Source of the DNA: Lactobacillaceae bacterium
GTDB taxonomy: Bacteria; Pseudomonadota; Alphaproteobacteria; RF32; CAG-239
Assembly (NCBI GenBank): GCA_031271345.1
Contig: JAISVX010000002.1
Location: 44,832 to 108,831 of the forward strand
DNA length: 64,000 bases
Direction of reading: 5' to 3'
Shown here: one piece after another, positions 31,554-55,995 of the stretch
Position numbering within the stretch: the stretch's first letter is position 1
Layout: each line of letters starts with the position of its first letter
Program-made: the position numbers and the translations under genes
The notes under the pieces: generated by a model
What the model saw: only the letters and a program-made list of their open reading frames with translations
Told to the model about the DNA's origin: nothing
The model's database searches: none

Positions 31554-31629
31554 GGTCCCATCGTCTAGAGGCCTAGGACACGTCCCTTTCACGGATGAAA
31601 CACGAGTTCGAATCTCGTTGGGATCACCA
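31554..31629 (+). tRNA. tRNA-Glu(TTC)
   Basis: Acceptor GGTCCCA/TGGGATC, anticodon arm CGTCC-CTTTCAC-GGATG, GTTCGAATC T loop, encoded CCA. Confidence 0.96.
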
Positions 31630-31833
31630 TTAAAACAAAATGCCGCCGGAAAGGCGGCATTTTTCATTTTAAATTGGTGTTCCCATCAGAAAAATTTCAA
31701 TCTTGCAGATTTTATTTTTCTGAAACGAGCGAGATTTTATTAAATTCAAAAGCTCTGCTGCCGCTATCGTTTTTTCATTAACTAAAATCCGTGATACGTA
31801 ATAAAAGACTGACTAAATGTCAGTCTTTTATTA
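31619..31833. repeat. tRNA-anchored multi-hairpin element, copy 1
   Basis: Terminator stem extended by a complement of the tRNA 3' end (31675-31685); hairpin 31686-31723; conserved core 31734-31788; hairpin 31799-31833. Confidence 0.65.
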
Positions 31834-31861
31834 CTATCCGTTAGGATTGTCTTAAGAAATT

Positions 31862-31888
31862 AAAAGCTCTTCACGGAGAAGAGCTTTA
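31862..31888. terminator. terminator of small lipoprotein gene
   Basis: AAAGCTCTTC-ACGGA-GAAGAGCTTT. Confidence 0.75.
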
Positions 31889-31914: not shown

Positions 31915-32058
31915 TTATTTGCAAGGAGCAACGATTTCAATAATTGAAATACCTAAGAAAGAGTGGTTTTCGCAAGTTTTTTGGCTGCCGATGTATCCAC
32001 GAGAACCTGTGCAAGCTGCAAGAGCGAATAAAACTGCAAGAATAGCTAATTTTTTCAT
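31915..32058 (-). CDS. small lipoprotein (47 aa, MKKLAILAVLFALAAC...VAPCK)
   Basis: Manual translation; AAGGA RBS; LAAC lipobox; terminator downstream. Confidence 0.8.
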   Translation of the reverse strand: MKKLAILAVLFALAACTGSRGYIGSQKTCENHSFLGISIIEIVAPCK

Positions 32059-32352: not shown

Positions 32353-33402
32353 TTAAAGCTCAAGAGCTTTCCGAGGTGTTTGGAAACTGCCTTTTTTTAG
32401 CTCTTTCCTGATTTCTTCGTTGAAAATGTATTTTCCCGATTGGTCATACATTTTATCAACGGAGACAGCTTTGTAAGAGAACATCGGCATATCCAACAGT
32501 TCGTTGATGGTAATTTCATTTTCCCAGAGCAGGCGCAGCATGTAAAAATATTGCTTGGGTTCGCTGCCTGTTTTTCTAATCTCTCCTTTTGCGTCTTGGA
32601 GCAACAGCCATTCTCCTGCTTCTTCAAGATTCCCGTCATTTATTTTTTCCAGGAACGTTGAACGCAGAAAACCATATTTGCCCATTCTCATCGCCGCTAA
32701 GGTTACAACAGCCATTTGTTGTCTGGATAAAACGATTGCCGGCGACAGATTGTCGACAACAAGAGGTTTCCAATCCTGAGAAACAACAAACACCGCTTCG
32801 TCATAGGTCATGCCGTAGAAATTGTAGTCTTTTACAGGCTGGTCGTTGATAAACTTAAATCCAACCAAGGCTCTCGGACATTCGTTAGGTACTTCTTTCT
32901 GCACTCCGTCAAGGTAGGCTCTTCCGATTATGACGTTGTCGAATGAAAGCTCATATACCTGAACGGCTTGTTGTTTTTCTTCAGAACCGCAGCTTCTCCA
33001 CAGTAGAGAGATGAGCAGTATAAGAGCCAGAAGCGGAAGGATAACCAGCCATATTCTTTTTCCTTTTTGCTTTTCACCCCTTTGCTGAGGTCTGACTTTT
33101 TTCCGCCTTTTCAGTTTGGATAAAAGTCTGCCCCACCATTTGTATGTCAGGGCGAGAAGAACTCCGGCGGCAGCGGCGCAGAGATACGGCCAAATTTTAG
33201 GCACGATGTACGTAATGCCTTCCCAGAGAAGGATAAGACCTTTTCCGACAAGGATAACGACGATAACTGCGACAGCCAGAATCAGCAGCAGAAGCAAAAG
33301 CTTCGTCAGCGTTTTTAAGTTATAACGCATTGAGATTTCGCCTTTCCACCATTTTCCGTTGATTGTCTTGGCTGAGAAAATGTTTTTGATTTTTGTTTTC
33401 AT
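32353..33402 (-). CDS. membrane-anchored protein with divergent GH24 (phage lysozyme)-like domain
   Basis: 3 TM helices, then AYLDG, MTYDEA, LSRQQMAVV, FLRSTFLEKINDG..EEAGEW resembling GH24 motifs. Confidence 0.55.
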   Translation of the reverse strand: MKTKIKNIFSAKTINGKWWKGEISMRYNLKTLTKLLLLLLILAVAVIVVILVGKGLILLWEGITYIVPKIWPYLCAAAAGVLLALTYKWWGRLLSKLKRRKKVRPQQRGEKQKGKRIWLVILPLLALILLISLLWRSCGSEEKQQAVQVYELSFDNVIIGRAYLDGVQKEVPNECPRALVGFKFINDQPVKDYNFYGMTYDEAVFVVSQDWKPLVVDNLSPAIVLSRQQMAVVTLAAMRMGKYGFLRSTFLEKINDGNLEEAGEWLLLQDAKGEIRKTGSEPKQYFYMLRLLWENEITINELLDMPMFSYKAVSVDKMYDQSGKYIFNEEIRKELKKGSFQTPRKALEL

Positions 33403-33585: not shown

Positions 33586-34800
33586 TTACAAGCTGTTTGG
33601 GTTTTGCTGAAAGTCTCTGCCGTTGAGCAAAGGATGGCTTCTTTTAACCTTTTTACTTATGTTTAAGCGCTCTCTGGCAATGTTTATACGAAGTTCCGGC
33701 GACTGTGGAAATTTTGTTTCGAGAAGCCCCCTGAAAGGAGAGTTCTTTTCTTGAGATACCATGTCAACAATGTTTAATCCGTCTTGTCCTTTGATGGATA
33801 AATCAGAATGCTGCAACAAATATCCAAACATTTCGATTTGATTGCTTTTATATGCGTGCATAATGGCTGTAAAACCTTTGTTGTCTTGTTCGTTGACAAA
33901 AGATTTTAAGCTTGCTTTTTTAGCTTTATTTTCTTGTTTTGTCTCGTTTGTCTGTTCATTTTCTTTGTCAGTGCATTCTTCAATAAAGAATTTAACGGTT
34001 TCAAGGCTTCCGGCTTTGACCGCTTTTGTTAAGACGTTTTCGCCGTCTTTATCTTTCATGCTTATATCGGCTTCATATTCGACTAACAATTTCGTAACGT
34101 CAAGGTGGTTATTTTCAACAGAAATCATGATTGCGGTTTTTTCTTCAATATTACGCAGGTTTACATCCGCTTTATTATCTAAATTATCTAATAAAAGTTT
34201 GGAGATGTCATGGCTTCCGTTTTTAGCGGAATACATAAGCGCGGTGTTGCCGTTAATATCTTTTTTGTTCAAATCCGCATTATGTTCAATAGCATATTTA
34301 ACCGCGTCAATATTTCCGACGTCGGTACACATCATCAAGAGAGTTTGTTTTTGGTCGTTTACGGCATTTATGTCTCCGCCGGCTTCAATATAAGCTTTTA
34401 ATGCTTCCACGCCGGTTTTGTCAGTTGCAAATACGCCCAGATTCGAATTTATGCCTTCGGCATCGCTAATGGCTAAAAGTTTTACCAAATTGGGATGAGA
34501 TTTAACAAATTCCGGAGTGATGTGTAGACTGCTGACATCCGCGCCGCGTCCGATTAACATAATTACCAGCTCGTCATTGCCTTTTTCAATCGCTATGCTT
34601 AGGGGGGTGCGCCCGCTGTTGTCTCTGGCATTTACGTCATAACCGTCTTTTATAAGCTGCATTACGCGGTCATTTAAACCTTCTTCGCATGCTTTGTGCA
34701 AAGCAGTGCATCCTTTTTCATCCGTATAGCCTTTTTTAGCCATATCTTCTATTTTGTGTTTATTCAAACGTTTTTCAAAGTTGTCTGGATTATCTTGCAT
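33586..34800 (-). CDS. ankyrin repeat protein
   Basis: Multiple G.TALH/TPL/TALM..A...G.......LL...ADVN repeats. Confidence 0.92.
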   Translation of the reverse strand: MQDNPDNFEKRLNKHKIEDMAKKGYTDEKGCTALHKACEEGLNDRVMQLIKDGYDVNARDNSGRTPLSIAIEKGNDELVIMLIGRGADVSSLHITPEFVKSHPNLVKLLAISDAEGINSNLGVFATDKTGVEALKAYIEAGGDINAVNDQKQTLLMMCTDVGNIDAVKYAIEHNADLNKKDINGNTALMYSAKNGSHDISKLLLDNLDNKADVNLRNIEEKTAIMISVENNHLDVTKLLVEYEADISMKDKDGENVLTKAVKAGSLETVKFFIEECTDKENEQTNETKQENKAKKASLKSFVNEQDNKGFTAIMHAYKSNQIEMFGYLLQHSDLSIKGQDGLNIVDMVSQEKNSPFRGLLETKFPQSPELRINIARERLNISKKVKRSHPLLNGRDFQQNPNSL

Positions 34801-34953: not shown

Positions 34954-35559
34954 CTATTTTCTCTTTCCTTTGAAAAGGTTTTTTACCACATCGAAAGAGA
35001 CGTATAAGTCAACTTCGAACTGCAGTTTCGATAACCCGAAACCGTTTTTGCTGGCAAATCCTTGAGCTACCCAGAACCCGCCGCTGAGATTTTTGCAGAT
35101 GTTGAAAGGAATAAAAAAGCCCAAGCTCGCTTCCAAATTCGAATCTACAAAAAATATCGGCTGCAGATTTATCGGCTTGAGGTCGAAGTCGTGCCATATC
35201 ATGGCAAGCCCGTAGAGTTGTCCCTGACTATAGCTTACCAAACCGCGGTAATAGGTGTTTTCTTTGAAAACACCGTCATAAGCCAGACCGCCGCCGAAAG
35301 ACCAGTCTTTTTCGTACTCGTATGTTTCAACGAAGCCGTAAAATCCCCGGTATGCAAGCCCCGTTCTGAAAATGTGGCTTGCTCCTGGTCCTAAATATAC
35401 CTCCGACAGCGATGTCAGCGGATAATTAGGCTTCTCCAGTATTATTCCAGGGTCTTCTTTTTTTTCAGCTTTGAAAGCTTCTTTGTTAGTTACTTGCTCT
35501 TGCGCGAAACCTGCCAAAGTGAAAAGGCAAAATACGGAGAAAAGGATAATTTTTTTCAT
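34954..35559 (-). CDS. exported protein, probable outer-membrane beta-barrel
   Basis: Signal peptide MKKIILF...AGFAQ; alternating aromatic/Gly beta strands. Confidence 0.6.
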   Translation of the reverse strand: MKKIILFSVFCLFTLAGFAQEQVTNKEAFKAEKKEDPGIILEKPNYPLTSLSEVYLGPGASHIFRTGLAYRGFYGFVETYEYEKDWSFGGGLAYDGVFKENTYYRGLVSYSQGQLYGLAMIWHDFDLKPINLQPIFFVDSNLEASLGFFIPFNICKNLSGGFWVAQGFASKNGFGLSKLQFEVDLYVSFDVVKNLFKGKRK

Positions 35560-35686
35560 CTGTGAAGTTTTATTTAGTTTTAACTTAGTTTCCAATAATA
35601 CGCTAATGTGTAAAGTAGTGTATAAAGTATAGTATATTTATTTGTCCAATGCAAGAGCAATTTGGACAAAAGACGCGGTTTCTTAT

Positions 35687-55709: not shown

Positions 55710-55786
55710 GGCGGAAGTAGCTCAGTTGGTAGAGCCCTGGTTTGTGGTACCAGTTGTCGCGGGTTCGAGCCCCGTCTTTCGCCCCA
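55710..55786 (+). tRNA. tRNA-His(GTG) with encoded G-1 and C73
   Basis: G + GCGGAAG/CTTTCGC acceptor, CTGGT-TTGTGGT-ACCAG anticodon arm, GGTTCGAG, CCA. Confidence 0.96.
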
Positions 55787-55995
55787 TTAAAAAGCTCACC
55801 TTTACGGTGAGTTTTTTAATGGGGCGAAAGCCAATCAGACTTCGCGTAAGCCTGTCTTCTTGGAATGGGCTGCACAATAATTTCTAAGTTCATTTCAGTT
55901 GCTGCCGTTTTCTTCATTTACTAAGAATTTATTGCTCTTGCAGACAAAAAATTGACTGATTCAAATTTTTACTTGGCGAGCTTCTTTCGCCAATA
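55776..55995. repeat. tRNA-anchored multi-hairpin element, copy 2
   Basis: 25-bp stem 55776-55830 including tRNA 3' end; hairpin 55831-55863; conserved core 55879-55930; further hairpins to about 55995. Confidence 0.65.

What the first reader, a model, noticed from the sequence alone, without database searches (positions are those of the whole stretch)
31619..31833. Candidate undescribed tRNA-anchored structured element (copy after tRNA-Glu)
Seen: downstream of tRNA-Glu the terminator stem (TGCCGCC/GGCGGCA) is extended by TGGTGTTCCCA (31675-31685), a 10/11 reverse complement of the tRNA's own 3' end TGGGATCACCA. It is followed by hairpin 2 (TCAGAAAAAT..AATCT-TGC-AGATT..ATTTTTCTGA), a core stem-loop (ATTTTATTAA...TTAACTAAAAT) enclosing TAAATTCA-N7-TGCTGCCG-CTATCG-TTTTTTCATTAACTAA, and hairpin 3 (TAATAAAAGACTGAC/GTCAGTCTTTTATTA). 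The same order of parts and the same core occur after the unrelated tRNA-His 24 kb away. Inference: a module whose first arm is customised to each host tRNA and whose core is invariant. Possible identities: a non-autonomous tRNA-targeting mobile or recombination site, an antisense or tRNA-processing ncRNA, or a decoy protecting the att site. An accessory region with no integrase starts immediately after it.
Basis: partly seen in the sequence, partly recalled or inferred. Interest (0 to 1): 0.85.

Follow-up and report, generated by a model that had tools for sequence, protein, structure and literature searches.

The report
Mobile folded cassette behind tRNA genes
The element after tRNA-Glu is a worn copy of a small, gene-less, tightly folded DNA cassette that sits hundreds of times at the ends of tRNA genes in a group of uncultured gut bacteria, and no enzyme that could move it was found.

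Summary
Of the genome's 37 tRNAs, only tRNA-Glu(UUC) and tRNA-His carry an inverted copy of their own 3' end just downstream (10/11 and 11/11 bases; all others at most 8/11). Each is followed by the same series of hairpins.

The His copy belongs to a ~120-nt two-hairpin core ("E"). E was found in 91 of 101 genomes of this gut alphaproteobacterial family, with 574 matches. It has strong covariation and three conserved G·U pairs on one strand. The Glu copy is a diverged member (24 bits).

The usual frame is: tRNA, terminator, inverted copy of the tRNA 3' end, small hairpin plus E in either orientation, direct copy of the tRNA 3' end, terminator. Related genomes show filled and empty tRNA-His sites with exact borders. 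The direct repeat starts 19 nt before the tRNA end in 24 of 33 units. Tandem arrays occur.

No recombinase lies nearby. Copy number does not follow integrase count. One genome with 24-29 copies lacks TnpB, Y1, RT, IS110 and rve genes. E has no match in Rfam, phage, plasmid or viral collections.

Best reading: a new non-autonomous insertion cassette that targets tRNA 3' ends and is moved in trans by an unknown enzyme. About 44% of copies lie away from tRNAs.

The parts
31554..31629 (+). tRNA-Glu(UUC). Its last 11 nt (31619-31629) are the target sequence B that the cassette copies.
   Evidence: ARAGORN; Rfam tRNA model at 56.4 bits.
31637..31663 (.). Terminator-like hairpin 1, readable on both strands. 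It separates the tRNA from the inverted copy of its 3' end.
   Evidence: Terminator scan, both strands; fold.
31675..31685 (+). Inverted copy of the tRNA-Glu 3' end (the anti-acceptor arm), matching at 10 of 11 positions.
   Evidence: Sequence. Control over all 37 tRNAs and 500 shuffles. The related G002 copy has an exact inverted copy within a 60-nt palindrome.
31686..31723 (+). Hairpin 2. It occupies the place of the small variable hairpin (SL0) that precedes the core in other units.
   Evidence: Fold. The hairpin is kept through compensatory changes in the two G002 relatives.
31730..31849 (+). Diverged E core.
   Evidence: Model R1 at 24.2 bits over its full length; fold; alignment with G002 copies.
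31840..31851 (+). Decayed direct copy of the tRNA-Glu 3' end (8 of 12 bases by my reading).
   Evidence: Sequence. At the same place, the G002:C15 relative carries a 24-nt direct repeat of the tRNA 3' end at 92% identity.
31863..31887 (.). Terminator-like hairpin 2, which closes the unit. It is also the likely terminator of the converging small gene at 31915-32058.
   Evidence: Terminator scan, both strands.
55711..55786 (+). tRNA-His(GUG), host of the second and better preserved copy.
   Evidence: ARAGORN; Rfam.
55776..55830 (.). 55-nt palindrome (91% self-complementary). It consists of the tRNA-His 3' end, the terminator, and an exact 13-nt inverted copy of the tRNA end at 55818-55830.
   Evidence: Self-BLAST. 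The tRNA-His sites of G001 and G002 lack it.
55875..55994 (+). E core, His copy (SL1 plus SL2). Its last bases (55984-55991) are a partial direct copy of the tRNA-His acceptor strand.
   Evidence: R1 at 97.6 bits; this copy was one of the model's seed sequences. It is 72-79% identical to copies in other genera. In the minimum-energy fold the two flanking tRNA-derived arms pair with each other.

Best explanation
The stretch 31630-31887 is an old, decayed copy of a 200-230 bp non-autonomous insertion cassette. This cassette family is specialised for the 3' ends of tRNA genes.

Shown:
- A conserved ~120-nt core E consists of two stem-loops and is preceded by a small variable hairpin. It is repeated 1 to 24-29 times per genome across a family of uncultured gut Alphaproteobacteria.
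- At tRNA genes the frame is always: intact tRNA, terminator, inverted copy of the tRNA 3' end, hairpin plus E in either orientation, direct copy of the tRNA 3' end, second terminator.
- In one orientation class the direct repeat starts at a fixed point 19 nt before the tRNA end, which lies in the T-loop.
- Members of one genus have either the filled site or an exactly empty one.
- Units pile up in tandem, and some arrays contain units of different subfamilies.
- The core is kept as a fold of one particular strand.

Inferred:
- The cassette enters by recombination at the tRNA 3' end. It brings a replacement 3' end and terminator, so the tRNA survives.
- The palindrome formed by the tRNA end, the terminator and the inverted tRNA end is part of its attachment site.
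- A recombinase encoded elsewhere acts in trans. The only candidates present in every cassette-rich genome examined are the two Xer-like tyrosine recombinases.
- The folded core is what that machinery, or a single-stranded intermediate, recognises.

The window's two copies are of the class in which E reads in the same direction as the tRNA.
For: Family and distribution:
- R1 matches 91 of 101 family genomes and 23 of 23 genera, with 574 matches in total.
- Outside the family it matches 2 of 119 genomes of the class.
The 80 rows printed are nearly all gut or rumen Alphaproteobacteria MAGs.

Link to tRNA genes:
- Of 80 scorable motif-selected copies, 45 lie within 300 nt of a tRNA. Of those, 43 lie beyond the tRNA 3' end. 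They involve 18 tRNA species.

Frame and junctions:
- Searches show the frame.
- The direct repeat starts at -19 in 24 of 33 type I units and at -14 to -18 in 18 of 19 type II units.
- In 34 type I units the inverted copy matches the T-arm at 88-100% (one T-loop position 65%), the acceptor strand at only 47-68%, and the CCA and trailer at 68-100%.

Insertion:
- G008 and G119 have a 220-bp unit between 20-bp repeats at tRNA-His.
- In G086 and G118 the tRNA is followed directly by the terminator that follows the distal repeat in G008. G046 is also empty.
- The tRNA-His sites of G001 and G002 are empty and have no inverted arm.
- L036 holds two tandem units of different subfamilies at tRNA-Gly.

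Fold (111 copies):
- 93.9% of cells are paired, against 77.2% in shuffles and at most 53% in slid controls.
- 24 of 35 pairs show changes on both sides.
- G·U pairs are kept at three positions in 88 to 100 of 108 sequences.

Glu copy:
- R1 scores it at 24.2 bits.
- It has the same frame.
- Its G002 relatives have exact inverted and direct copies.

No ORF is conserved in the core.
Against: - No mobilising enzyme was found. Only 1 of 1469 ORFs in 156 E-bearing loci resembles a tyrosine recombinase, and it is Xer-like.
- Copy number does not follow the integrase count: Spearman rho = -0.11, p = 0.27. Nine of 30 genomes with 8 or more copies have only two PF00589 genes.
- G060 lacks TnpB, Y1, RT, IS110 and rve genes. 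G080 lacks serine recombinases.
- These genomes are MAGs, which often lose mobile DNA, so absence is weak evidence.
- 35 of 80 copies are not near a tRNA, and only 2 of those 35 have a tRNA-like flank.
- In G060, near-identical cores occur only within arrays or in non-tRNA repeats. The tRNA-linked copies may therefore be old.
- The comparison of empty and filled sites does not show direction. Deletion between the direct repeats would look the same.
- A simple conservative integrase model does not explain how both the direct and the inverted target copies get re-made for each new tRNA.
- The genomes are related to one another, so the counts are not independent.
- The Glu copy itself is a weak match and lacks the two most conserved motifs.
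Confidence: 0.6

Rival explanations
1. E is a family of functional small RNA genes, or RNAs derived from tRNA 3' trailers, comparable to the rtT RNA made from the E. coli tyrT repeats. The copies of the tRNA 3' end would serve processing or pairing with the tRNA or its precursor. Multiplication would occur by local duplication.
For: - Covariation is strong, and three G·U pairs are conserved on one strand only.
- In the window's two copies and 23 of 43 sampled tRNA-downstream copies, E reads in the tRNA's direction and could be made by read-through.
- The E. coli tyrT locus has 178-bp tandem units, each overlapping the tRNA-Tyr 3' end, and the annotated RttR RNA lies within them.
- A preprint, of which I read passages, calls rtT a product of tyrT transcript processing.
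Against: - 20 of 43 sampled copies face the tRNA, so read-through would produce the wrong strand.
- The Glu unit lies between two terminators, and the scan found no promoter-like site inside it.
- 35 of 80 copies are away from tRNAs.
- Copy number ranges from 0 to 24-29 among close relatives.
- Members of one genus show empty and filled sites with exact borders.
- No RNA data were available.
Confidence: 0.2
2. The units are scars. They would be the joined att ends left when larger tRNA-integrated islands or prophages lost everything between attL and attR (CIME-like remnants).
For: - Direct repeats of the tRNA 3' end flank the unit.
- Synteny with members of the same genus ends at both tRNAs of the window.
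- The array in L040 ends at a bare tRNA-Gly 3' fragment.
Against: - The same ~220-bp unit with a covarying core recurs 574 times in 101 genomes and at 18 tRNA species.
- No larger relative with an integrase turned up in 156 loci, in viral contigs, in phages or in plasmids.
- Selection on a strand-specific fold is not expected of a scar.
Confidence: 0.1
3. E is the guide or scaffold RNA of an RNA-directed recombinase or nuclease (IS110 bridge RNA, TnpB or IscB omega RNA). The arm complementary to the tRNA would be its programmable guide.
For: - A 13-31 nt tRNA-matched arm lies beside a structured scaffold, and it changes with the host tRNA.
Against: - IS110 is found in only 2 of 5 cassette-rich genomes and TnpB in none above its cut-off. 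G060 has neither.
- The core holds no excess of matches to its host tRNA. The mean longest shared word is 4.8, against 5.1 for swapped tRNAs.
- No protein gene recurs beside E.
Confidence: 0.05
4. It is a chance run of terminator hairpins in AT-rich intergenic DNA between converging genes.
For: - The region lies between a tRNA and a converging small gene, where terminators are expected.
- BLAST similarity between the Glu and His regions is not significant.
Against: - The inverted arm is found at 2 of 37 tRNAs, and 0 of 500 shuffles reach it.
- The fold has z = -7.6.
- The model match has E = 1.2e-3 genome-wide.
- The element is conserved in G002 with compensatory changes.
Confidence: 0.02

Closest known systems
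E. coli tyrT-tyrV downstream repeats (rttR / rtT RNA)
   Same: Both are tandem units of about 180-220 bp directly behind a tRNA gene, and each unit carries a copy of the tRNA's 3' end. I checked this on K-12: three units at 178-bp spacing, the last overlapping the tyrV 3' end. A small RNA is annotated inside them.
   Different: There is no sequence or structure homology. R1's best score there is 6.1 bits, and no Rfam match, rtT included, was found at either locus in the window. The E. coli repeats are confined to one locus. As far as I recall they have no inverted copy of the tRNA end, and they are not dispersed over many tRNAs.
tRNA-integrating genomic islands and their non-autonomous derivatives (CIMEs, IMEs)
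   Same: Both insert at the tRNA 3' end, regenerate the tRNA and are flanked by direct repeats. The junction lies in the T-loop, and units accrete in tandem. That the T-loop is a known integrase sublocation is recalled from memory.
   Different: The unit is only about 220 bp. No integrase lies in or near it, and none correlates with it in the genome. It has an extra inverted copy of the target and an invertible structured core. It uses 18 or more different tRNA targets, and 44% of copies lie elsewhere.
MITEs and REP/REPIN-type structured repeats
   Same: Both are small, lack an ORF, occur in many copies, fold into hairpins, have inverted repeats at their ends, break assemblies and are non-autonomous.
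   Different: The inverted repeats are copies of the target rather than of a transposase's ends. The duplication is 19-31 nt and anchored at one tRNA position, unlike a short fixed TSD. Y1/RAYT genes are absent in 4 of 5 cassette-rich genomes, and no DDE (rve) gene was found.
Integron attC sites and the CTX-phage attP(+) hairpin (folded single-strand recombination sites)
   Same: Both have an imperfect palindrome whose stem rebuilds the double-stranded target and whose middle is mismatched. Here the mismatched part is the acceptor strand. Both form cassette arrays next to a fixed site, and the folds are strand-specific.
   Different: Nothing here shows single-stranded intermediates or dependence on IntI or Xer. 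The target is a tRNA gene rather than attI or dif, and the cargo is a structured non-coding core rather than a gene.

Membership tests
E cassette family (defined here by covariance model R1) | Full-length match to R1 clearly above background | tested here: met
   The Glu copy scores 24.2 bits over model positions 1-122. E = 1.2e-3 genome-wide and 5e-5 in the window, and the next unrelated hit in the window scores 14.7 bits. The His copy scores 97.6 bits, but it is a seed sequence of the model.
E cassette family (defined here by covariance model R1) | The two most conserved motifs of SL2 (CTTGCAGA and CTTAGCG) | tested here: not met
   Both are absent from the Glu copy (alignment) and present in the His copy. 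The Glu copy is therefore a diverged subfamily, shared with two G002 copies.
E cassette family (defined here by covariance model R1) | Frame: tRNA, terminator, inverted tRNA 3' end, hairpin, SL1-SL2, direct tRNA 3' end, terminator | tested here: met
   The direct copy is decayed to 8 of 12 bases in the window but is a 24-nt repeat at 92% identity in the G002:C15 relative.
MITE | Small, no conserved ORF, many copies, terminal inverted repeats | tested here: met
MITE | Short target-site duplication of fixed length, and ends matching those of a resident transposase-bearing element | tested here: not met
   The repeats are 19-31 nt and anchored at tRNA position -19. The ends are copies of the target. 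No transposase gene recurs nearby, and none is present in all cassette-rich genomes.
tRNA-integrating element with tyrosine-integrase att sites (island, CIME) | Direct repeats of the tRNA 3' end around the insert, with the tRNA left intact | tested here: met
tRNA-integrating element with tyrosine-integrase att sites (island, CIME) | A cognate integrase in the element or at least in the genome | tested here: not met
   One Xer-like ORF among 1469 ORFs of 156 loci. Nine of 30 cassette-rich genomes have only two PF00589 genes, and rho = -0.11. MAG incompleteness weakens this result.
rtT / tyrT repeat (Rfam rtT) | Homology in sequence and structure | tested here: not met
   No Rfam match other than tRNA at E up to 10 (Glu locus) and up to 1 (His locus). 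R1 finds nothing in the K-12 tyrT locus.
Folded single-strand att site (integron attC, CTX attP) | Imperfect palindrome with an unpaired central part | tested here: met
   The inverted copy matches the T-arm and trailer well but the acceptor strand at only 47-68%. The window has a 55-nt palindrome and G002 a 60-nt one.
Folded single-strand att site (integron attC, CTX attP) | Recombination of the folded strand by IntI or XerCD | not testable with these tools
   All that is known is that two Xer-like genes are present in all 101 genomes.
Guide RNA of IS110 (bridge RNA) or TnpB/IscB (omega RNA) | Partner protein present, and scaffold loops complementary to the target | tested here: not met
   PF02371 is found in 2 of 5 and PF07282 in 0 of 5 genomes above cut-off. 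The core shows no excess complementarity to its host tRNA.

The most novel reading that the evidence does not exclude
The cassettes may be a new kind of structure-directed insertion system with no integrase of its own. The palindrome (tRNA end, terminator, inverted tRNA end) has a mismatched acceptor bubble. Together with the strand-specific E fold, it could act as a folded single-strand attachment site, in the manner of integron attC or the CTX-phage hairpin. Such a site could be used by a host enzyme; the Xer pair is the only recombinase type seen in every cassette-rich genome examined. Both the inverted and the direct copies of the target would be re-templated from the new tRNA at each insertion, which would explain how one core reaches 18 or more different tRNAs.
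Probability: 0.12. Interest if true: 0.9.

Novelty: new variant of a known kind. Interest (0 to 1): 0.64.

Why it matters
tRNA genes are the classic landing sites for islands and phages, and landing there normally requires a dedicated integrase. Here a 220-bp cassette with no gene of its own occupies those sites in nearly every genome of a widespread but uncultured gut lineage. It rebuilds the tRNA end, copies its target three times and carries a strongly conserved fold.

If the cassette moves as proposed, it points to a way of targeting tRNA genes without an element-encoded recombinase. It also suggests a way in which att sites of other elements could be occupied or multiplied.

There are practical consequences too. 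The family breaks MAG assemblies: many G060 contigs end in a copy. It also offers a new structured motif for RNA and repeat libraries.

Tried and rejected
- Direct BLAST of the Glu downstream region against the His downstream region and the genome gave nothing significant. The link between the two copies rests on the covariance model and the shared frame.
- Protein-coding reading. In the His copy the conserved core can be read as a short minus-strand ORF. The relatives have no conserved ORF there, so this was rejected.
- tmRNA-like or tRNA-like gene. The idea came from T-arm-like flanks and from ARAGORN finding no tmRNA. It was rejected because a normal alpha-type tmRNA lies elsewhere and the T-arm pieces are copies of the neighbouring tRNA.
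- Rfam: only tRNA matched.
- Viral contigs gave 0 motif hits. Plasmids and phages gave no BLAST match.
- Enzyme hunt: no family fits.
- Guide-RNA idea: no signal.
- Expression: no RNA holder was listed. Read laying was not used, since only DNA contigs were on offer.
- Literature. Four searches (listings and abstract starts only) found no description of such an element in these bacteria. I read passages of one preprint on rtT/tyrT. Supplements were not consulted. The T-loop integrase sublocation, the CIME concept, and the attC and CTX hairpin mechanisms are recalled from memory and were not read here.
- Composite repeat 'a' of G060 was aligned to look for a classical MITE signature. No clear TSD was seen, and I did not pursue it.
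- No structure, complex or protein-homology job was needed.

Full report
**1. What is at the locus**

tRNA-Glu(UUC) ends at 31629. The following features lie downstream:
- a terminator hairpin at 31637-31663;
- an 11-nt stretch at 31675-31685, the reverse complement of the tRNA's last 11 nt at 10 positions;
- a 38-nt hairpin at 31686-31723;
- a long stem-loop at about 31733-31789;
- a 37-nt hairpin at 31798-31834;
- a decayed direct copy of the tRNA end at 31840-31851;
- a second terminator at 31863-31887.

The stretch folds far better than shuffles (z = -7.6).

I scanned all 37 tRNAs of the genome for an inverted copy of their last 11 nt within 200 nt downstream. Only tRNA-His (11/11) and tRNA-Glu(UUC) (10/11) have one, and the other 35 reach at most 8/11. 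The tRNA-His end sits in a 55-nt palindrome that includes its terminator.

**2. Are the two copies related?**

BLAST finds no significant similarity between them. However, the segment after tRNA-His (55883-55989) is 72-79% identical to single segments in other genera. Seven such segments align with two stem-loops, and 14 of 35 pairs change on both sides.

A covariance model of them (R1) finds five copies in the window's genome:
- the His copy, at 97.6 bits;
- three copies outside the window;
- the Glu copy at window 31730-31849, at 24.2 bits over the full model (E = 1.2e-3 genome-wide).

In the window, the next unrelated hit scores 14.7 bits. The Glu copy lacks the two most conserved motifs. 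It shares its variant form with two copies at tRNA-Glu genes of G002, where the hairpins are kept through compensatory changes. I read it as a diverged, decaying member of the family.

**3. The family**

- R1 matches 91 of 101 genomes sampled from the family and all 23 genera. Counts run from 1 to 24 per genome and total 574.
- With laxer filters, G060 has 29 matches.
- Outside the family, 2 of 119 genomes of the class have one match each.
The 80 rows printed are nearly all gut or rumen MAGs labelled Alphaproteobacteria.
- An alpha-type tmRNA in the window's genome agrees with that class assignment.
- These genomes are related to one another, so the counts are not independent.

**4. Anatomy**

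I oriented every unit by its tRNA. The frame is then: intact tRNA, terminator, inverted copy of the tRNA 3' end, a small hairpin plus E, a direct copy of the tRNA 3' end with a few trailer bases, and a second terminator.

The hairpin-plus-E block occurs in both orientations:
- type I, in which E faces the tRNA;
- type II, in which E reads the same way as the tRNA. Both window copies are type II.

The motif-selected sample had 111 copies. Thirty-one lay too near a locus end to score. Of the remaining 80:
- 45 lie within 300 nt of a tRNA;
- 43 of those lie beyond its 3' end (20 type I, 23 type II) and 2 lie upstream;
- 35 have no tRNA nearby;
- 18 tRNA species are involved.

Among 57 distinct tRNA-adjacent units, the direct repeat starts 19 nt before the tRNA end in 24 of 33 type I units with a clear repeat (5 at -20, 3 at -21, 1 at -29). 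In type II it starts at -14 to -18 in 18 of 19 units.

In 34 type I units the inverted copy matches the T-arm at 88-100% (one T-loop position is at 65%). It matches the acceptor strand at 47-68%, and the CCA and trailer at 68-100%. Some units still match the tRNA-specific acceptor bases, so the inverted copy derives from the same tRNA.

**5. Insertion**

At tRNA-His in genus g7, G008 and G119 carry a 220-bp unit between 20-bp repeats. In G086 and G118 the tRNA is followed directly by the terminator and flank that follow the distal repeat in G008. G046 is also empty. Within the window's own genus, the tRNA-His sites of G001 and G002 are empty and have no inverted arm.

Tandem units occur at periods of about 209-220 bp. 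In L036 the two units belong to different subfamilies, which argues for separate insertions. The direction of change (gain or loss) at any one site is not shown.

**6. The fold**

Over 111 copies (108 distinct), 93.9% of cells pair. This compares with 77.2% in shuffles and at most 53% when partners are slid. Twenty-four of 35 pairs change on both sides. Three G·U pairs are kept in 88, 93 and 100 of 108 sequences.

On the other strand these would be A·C mismatches, so one strand is the folded one. Whether it acts as RNA or as single-stranded DNA is open. The near-equal numbers of the two orientation classes, and the lack of a promoter-like site inside the Glu unit, argue against simple dependence on tRNA read-through. 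No RNA run was listed for this DNA.

**7. What moves it?**

- No gene family recurs beside E in 156 loci. Only one of 1469 ORFs there resembles a tyrosine recombinase, and it is Xer-like.
- All 101 genomes have PF00589 genes, but their number does not follow E copy number (rho = -0.11). Nine of 30 genomes with 8 or more copies have only two.
- Five cassette-rich genomes were checked for other enzyme families. TnpB was found in 0 above its cut-off, Y1 in 1, reverse transcriptase in 2, IS110 in 2, rve in 0 and serine recombinase in 4.
- G060 lacks all of these except serine recombinases, and G080 lacks serine recombinases.
- The core holds no extra complementarity to its host tRNA.
- No match was found in viral contigs, phages or plasmids.
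- MAGs often lack mobile DNA, so these absences are weak evidence.

**8. Copies away from tRNAs**

Thirty-five of 80 copies have no tRNA within 300 nt, and only 2 of them have a tRNA-like flank. They sit inside other composite repeats. Their own inverted flanks are visible in several printed copies, or they lie just after a long terminator-like hairpin.

In G060, the only near-identical cores (92% or more) lie within arrays or in these non-tRNA contexts. E is therefore a module that is not strictly tied to tRNAs.

**9. Reading**

The best-supported account is a non-autonomous cassette. It inserts at the tRNA 3' end, regenerates that end, is flanked by target copies and is moved in trans by an unknown enzyme. 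A plain integrase model leaves two things unexplained: the absent integrase, and the re-making of both inverted and direct target copies at 18 or more tRNAs.

The bolder reading is a folded single-strand attachment site used by a host recombinase, with the target copies re-templated at each insertion. It fits the palindrome, the mismatched acceptor strand and the strand-specific fold, but it is untested. The small-RNA, scar, guide-RNA and chance readings rank lower, for the reasons given under the rival explanations.

**10. Comparison and novelty**

The nearest precedent by architecture is the E. coli tyrT repeat array. I verified 178-bp units, the last of which overlaps the tRNA-Tyr 3' end. 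It is not homologous and is confined to a single locus.

tRNA-integrating islands and CIMEs share the direct repeats and the T-loop junction, but not the size, the inverted copy or the lack of an integrase. MITEs share the size and copy number but not the target-derived ends.

Four literature searches found no description of this element. I rate it a new variant of a known kind. The specific Glu copy is an old, worn example; the His copy in the same window is the better one.

Noticed in passing
G000:C2:647705-648102 (-), outside the window (locus L229): An alpha-type (two-piece) tmRNA gene matches Rfam RF01849 at 234 bits. ARAGORN reported no tmRNA for this genome.
   Followed up: partly
G000:C1:5254-5373 (outside the window; L061); L003:1394-1516; L034:1501-1622: Some E copies lie on the 5' side of tRNA genes. 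One is 32 nt before tRNA-Val(GAC), flanked by what I read as a ~23-nt direct repeat of the tRNA 5' end. One abuts the first bases of tRNA-Glu(CUC). One sits inside a duplicated 5' half of tRNA-Arg(CCU), interrupting its D-loop. This is a second insertion mode that I did not study.
   Followed up: partly
L015 (G003, after tRNA-His); L002, L025, L003 (G001 and G002, after tRNA-Glu): Other, unrelated small repeats sit behind the same tRNAs. Behind tRNA-His in G003 I read a unit of roughly 190 nt repeated twice. Behind tRNA-Glu I read an element of roughly 150 nt that begins with an inverted T-arm copy; in G002:C5 it ends in a 29-nt direct repeat of the tRNA end. The frame may be shared by several cassette families.
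   Followed up: no
window 31915-32058 (-), 32353-33402 (-), 33586-34800 (-), 34954-35595 (-): Downstream of the Glu unit lie four genes. They encode a 47-aa protein with a lipoprotein-like signal, a 349-aa protein with no Pfam match, an ankyrin-repeat protein, and a 213-aa protein with a signal-like start and no Pfam match. Synteny with G001 and G002 stops at the tRNA. No integrase is present.
   Followed up: partly
G060 contigs C8, C14, C19, C25, C31 (starts) and C9, C17, C27, C25 (ends); loci L187-L212: Many contigs of this MAG begin or end within about 300 nt of an E copy. The repeat seems to break short-read assemblies, so copy numbers are probably underestimates.
   Followed up: no
G000:C2:536664-536739 (tRNA-Lys CUU, outside the window): The last 6 nt of this tRNA plus 14 trailer bases recur as an exact 20-nt inverted copy 22 nt downstream, with no E core. 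The terminator palindrome here reaches into the tRNA end.
   Followed up: no
L126, L130, L159 (gut MAG records): Pairs of E copies lie head-to-head about 30 nt apart, on opposite strands and away from tRNAs.
   Followed up: no
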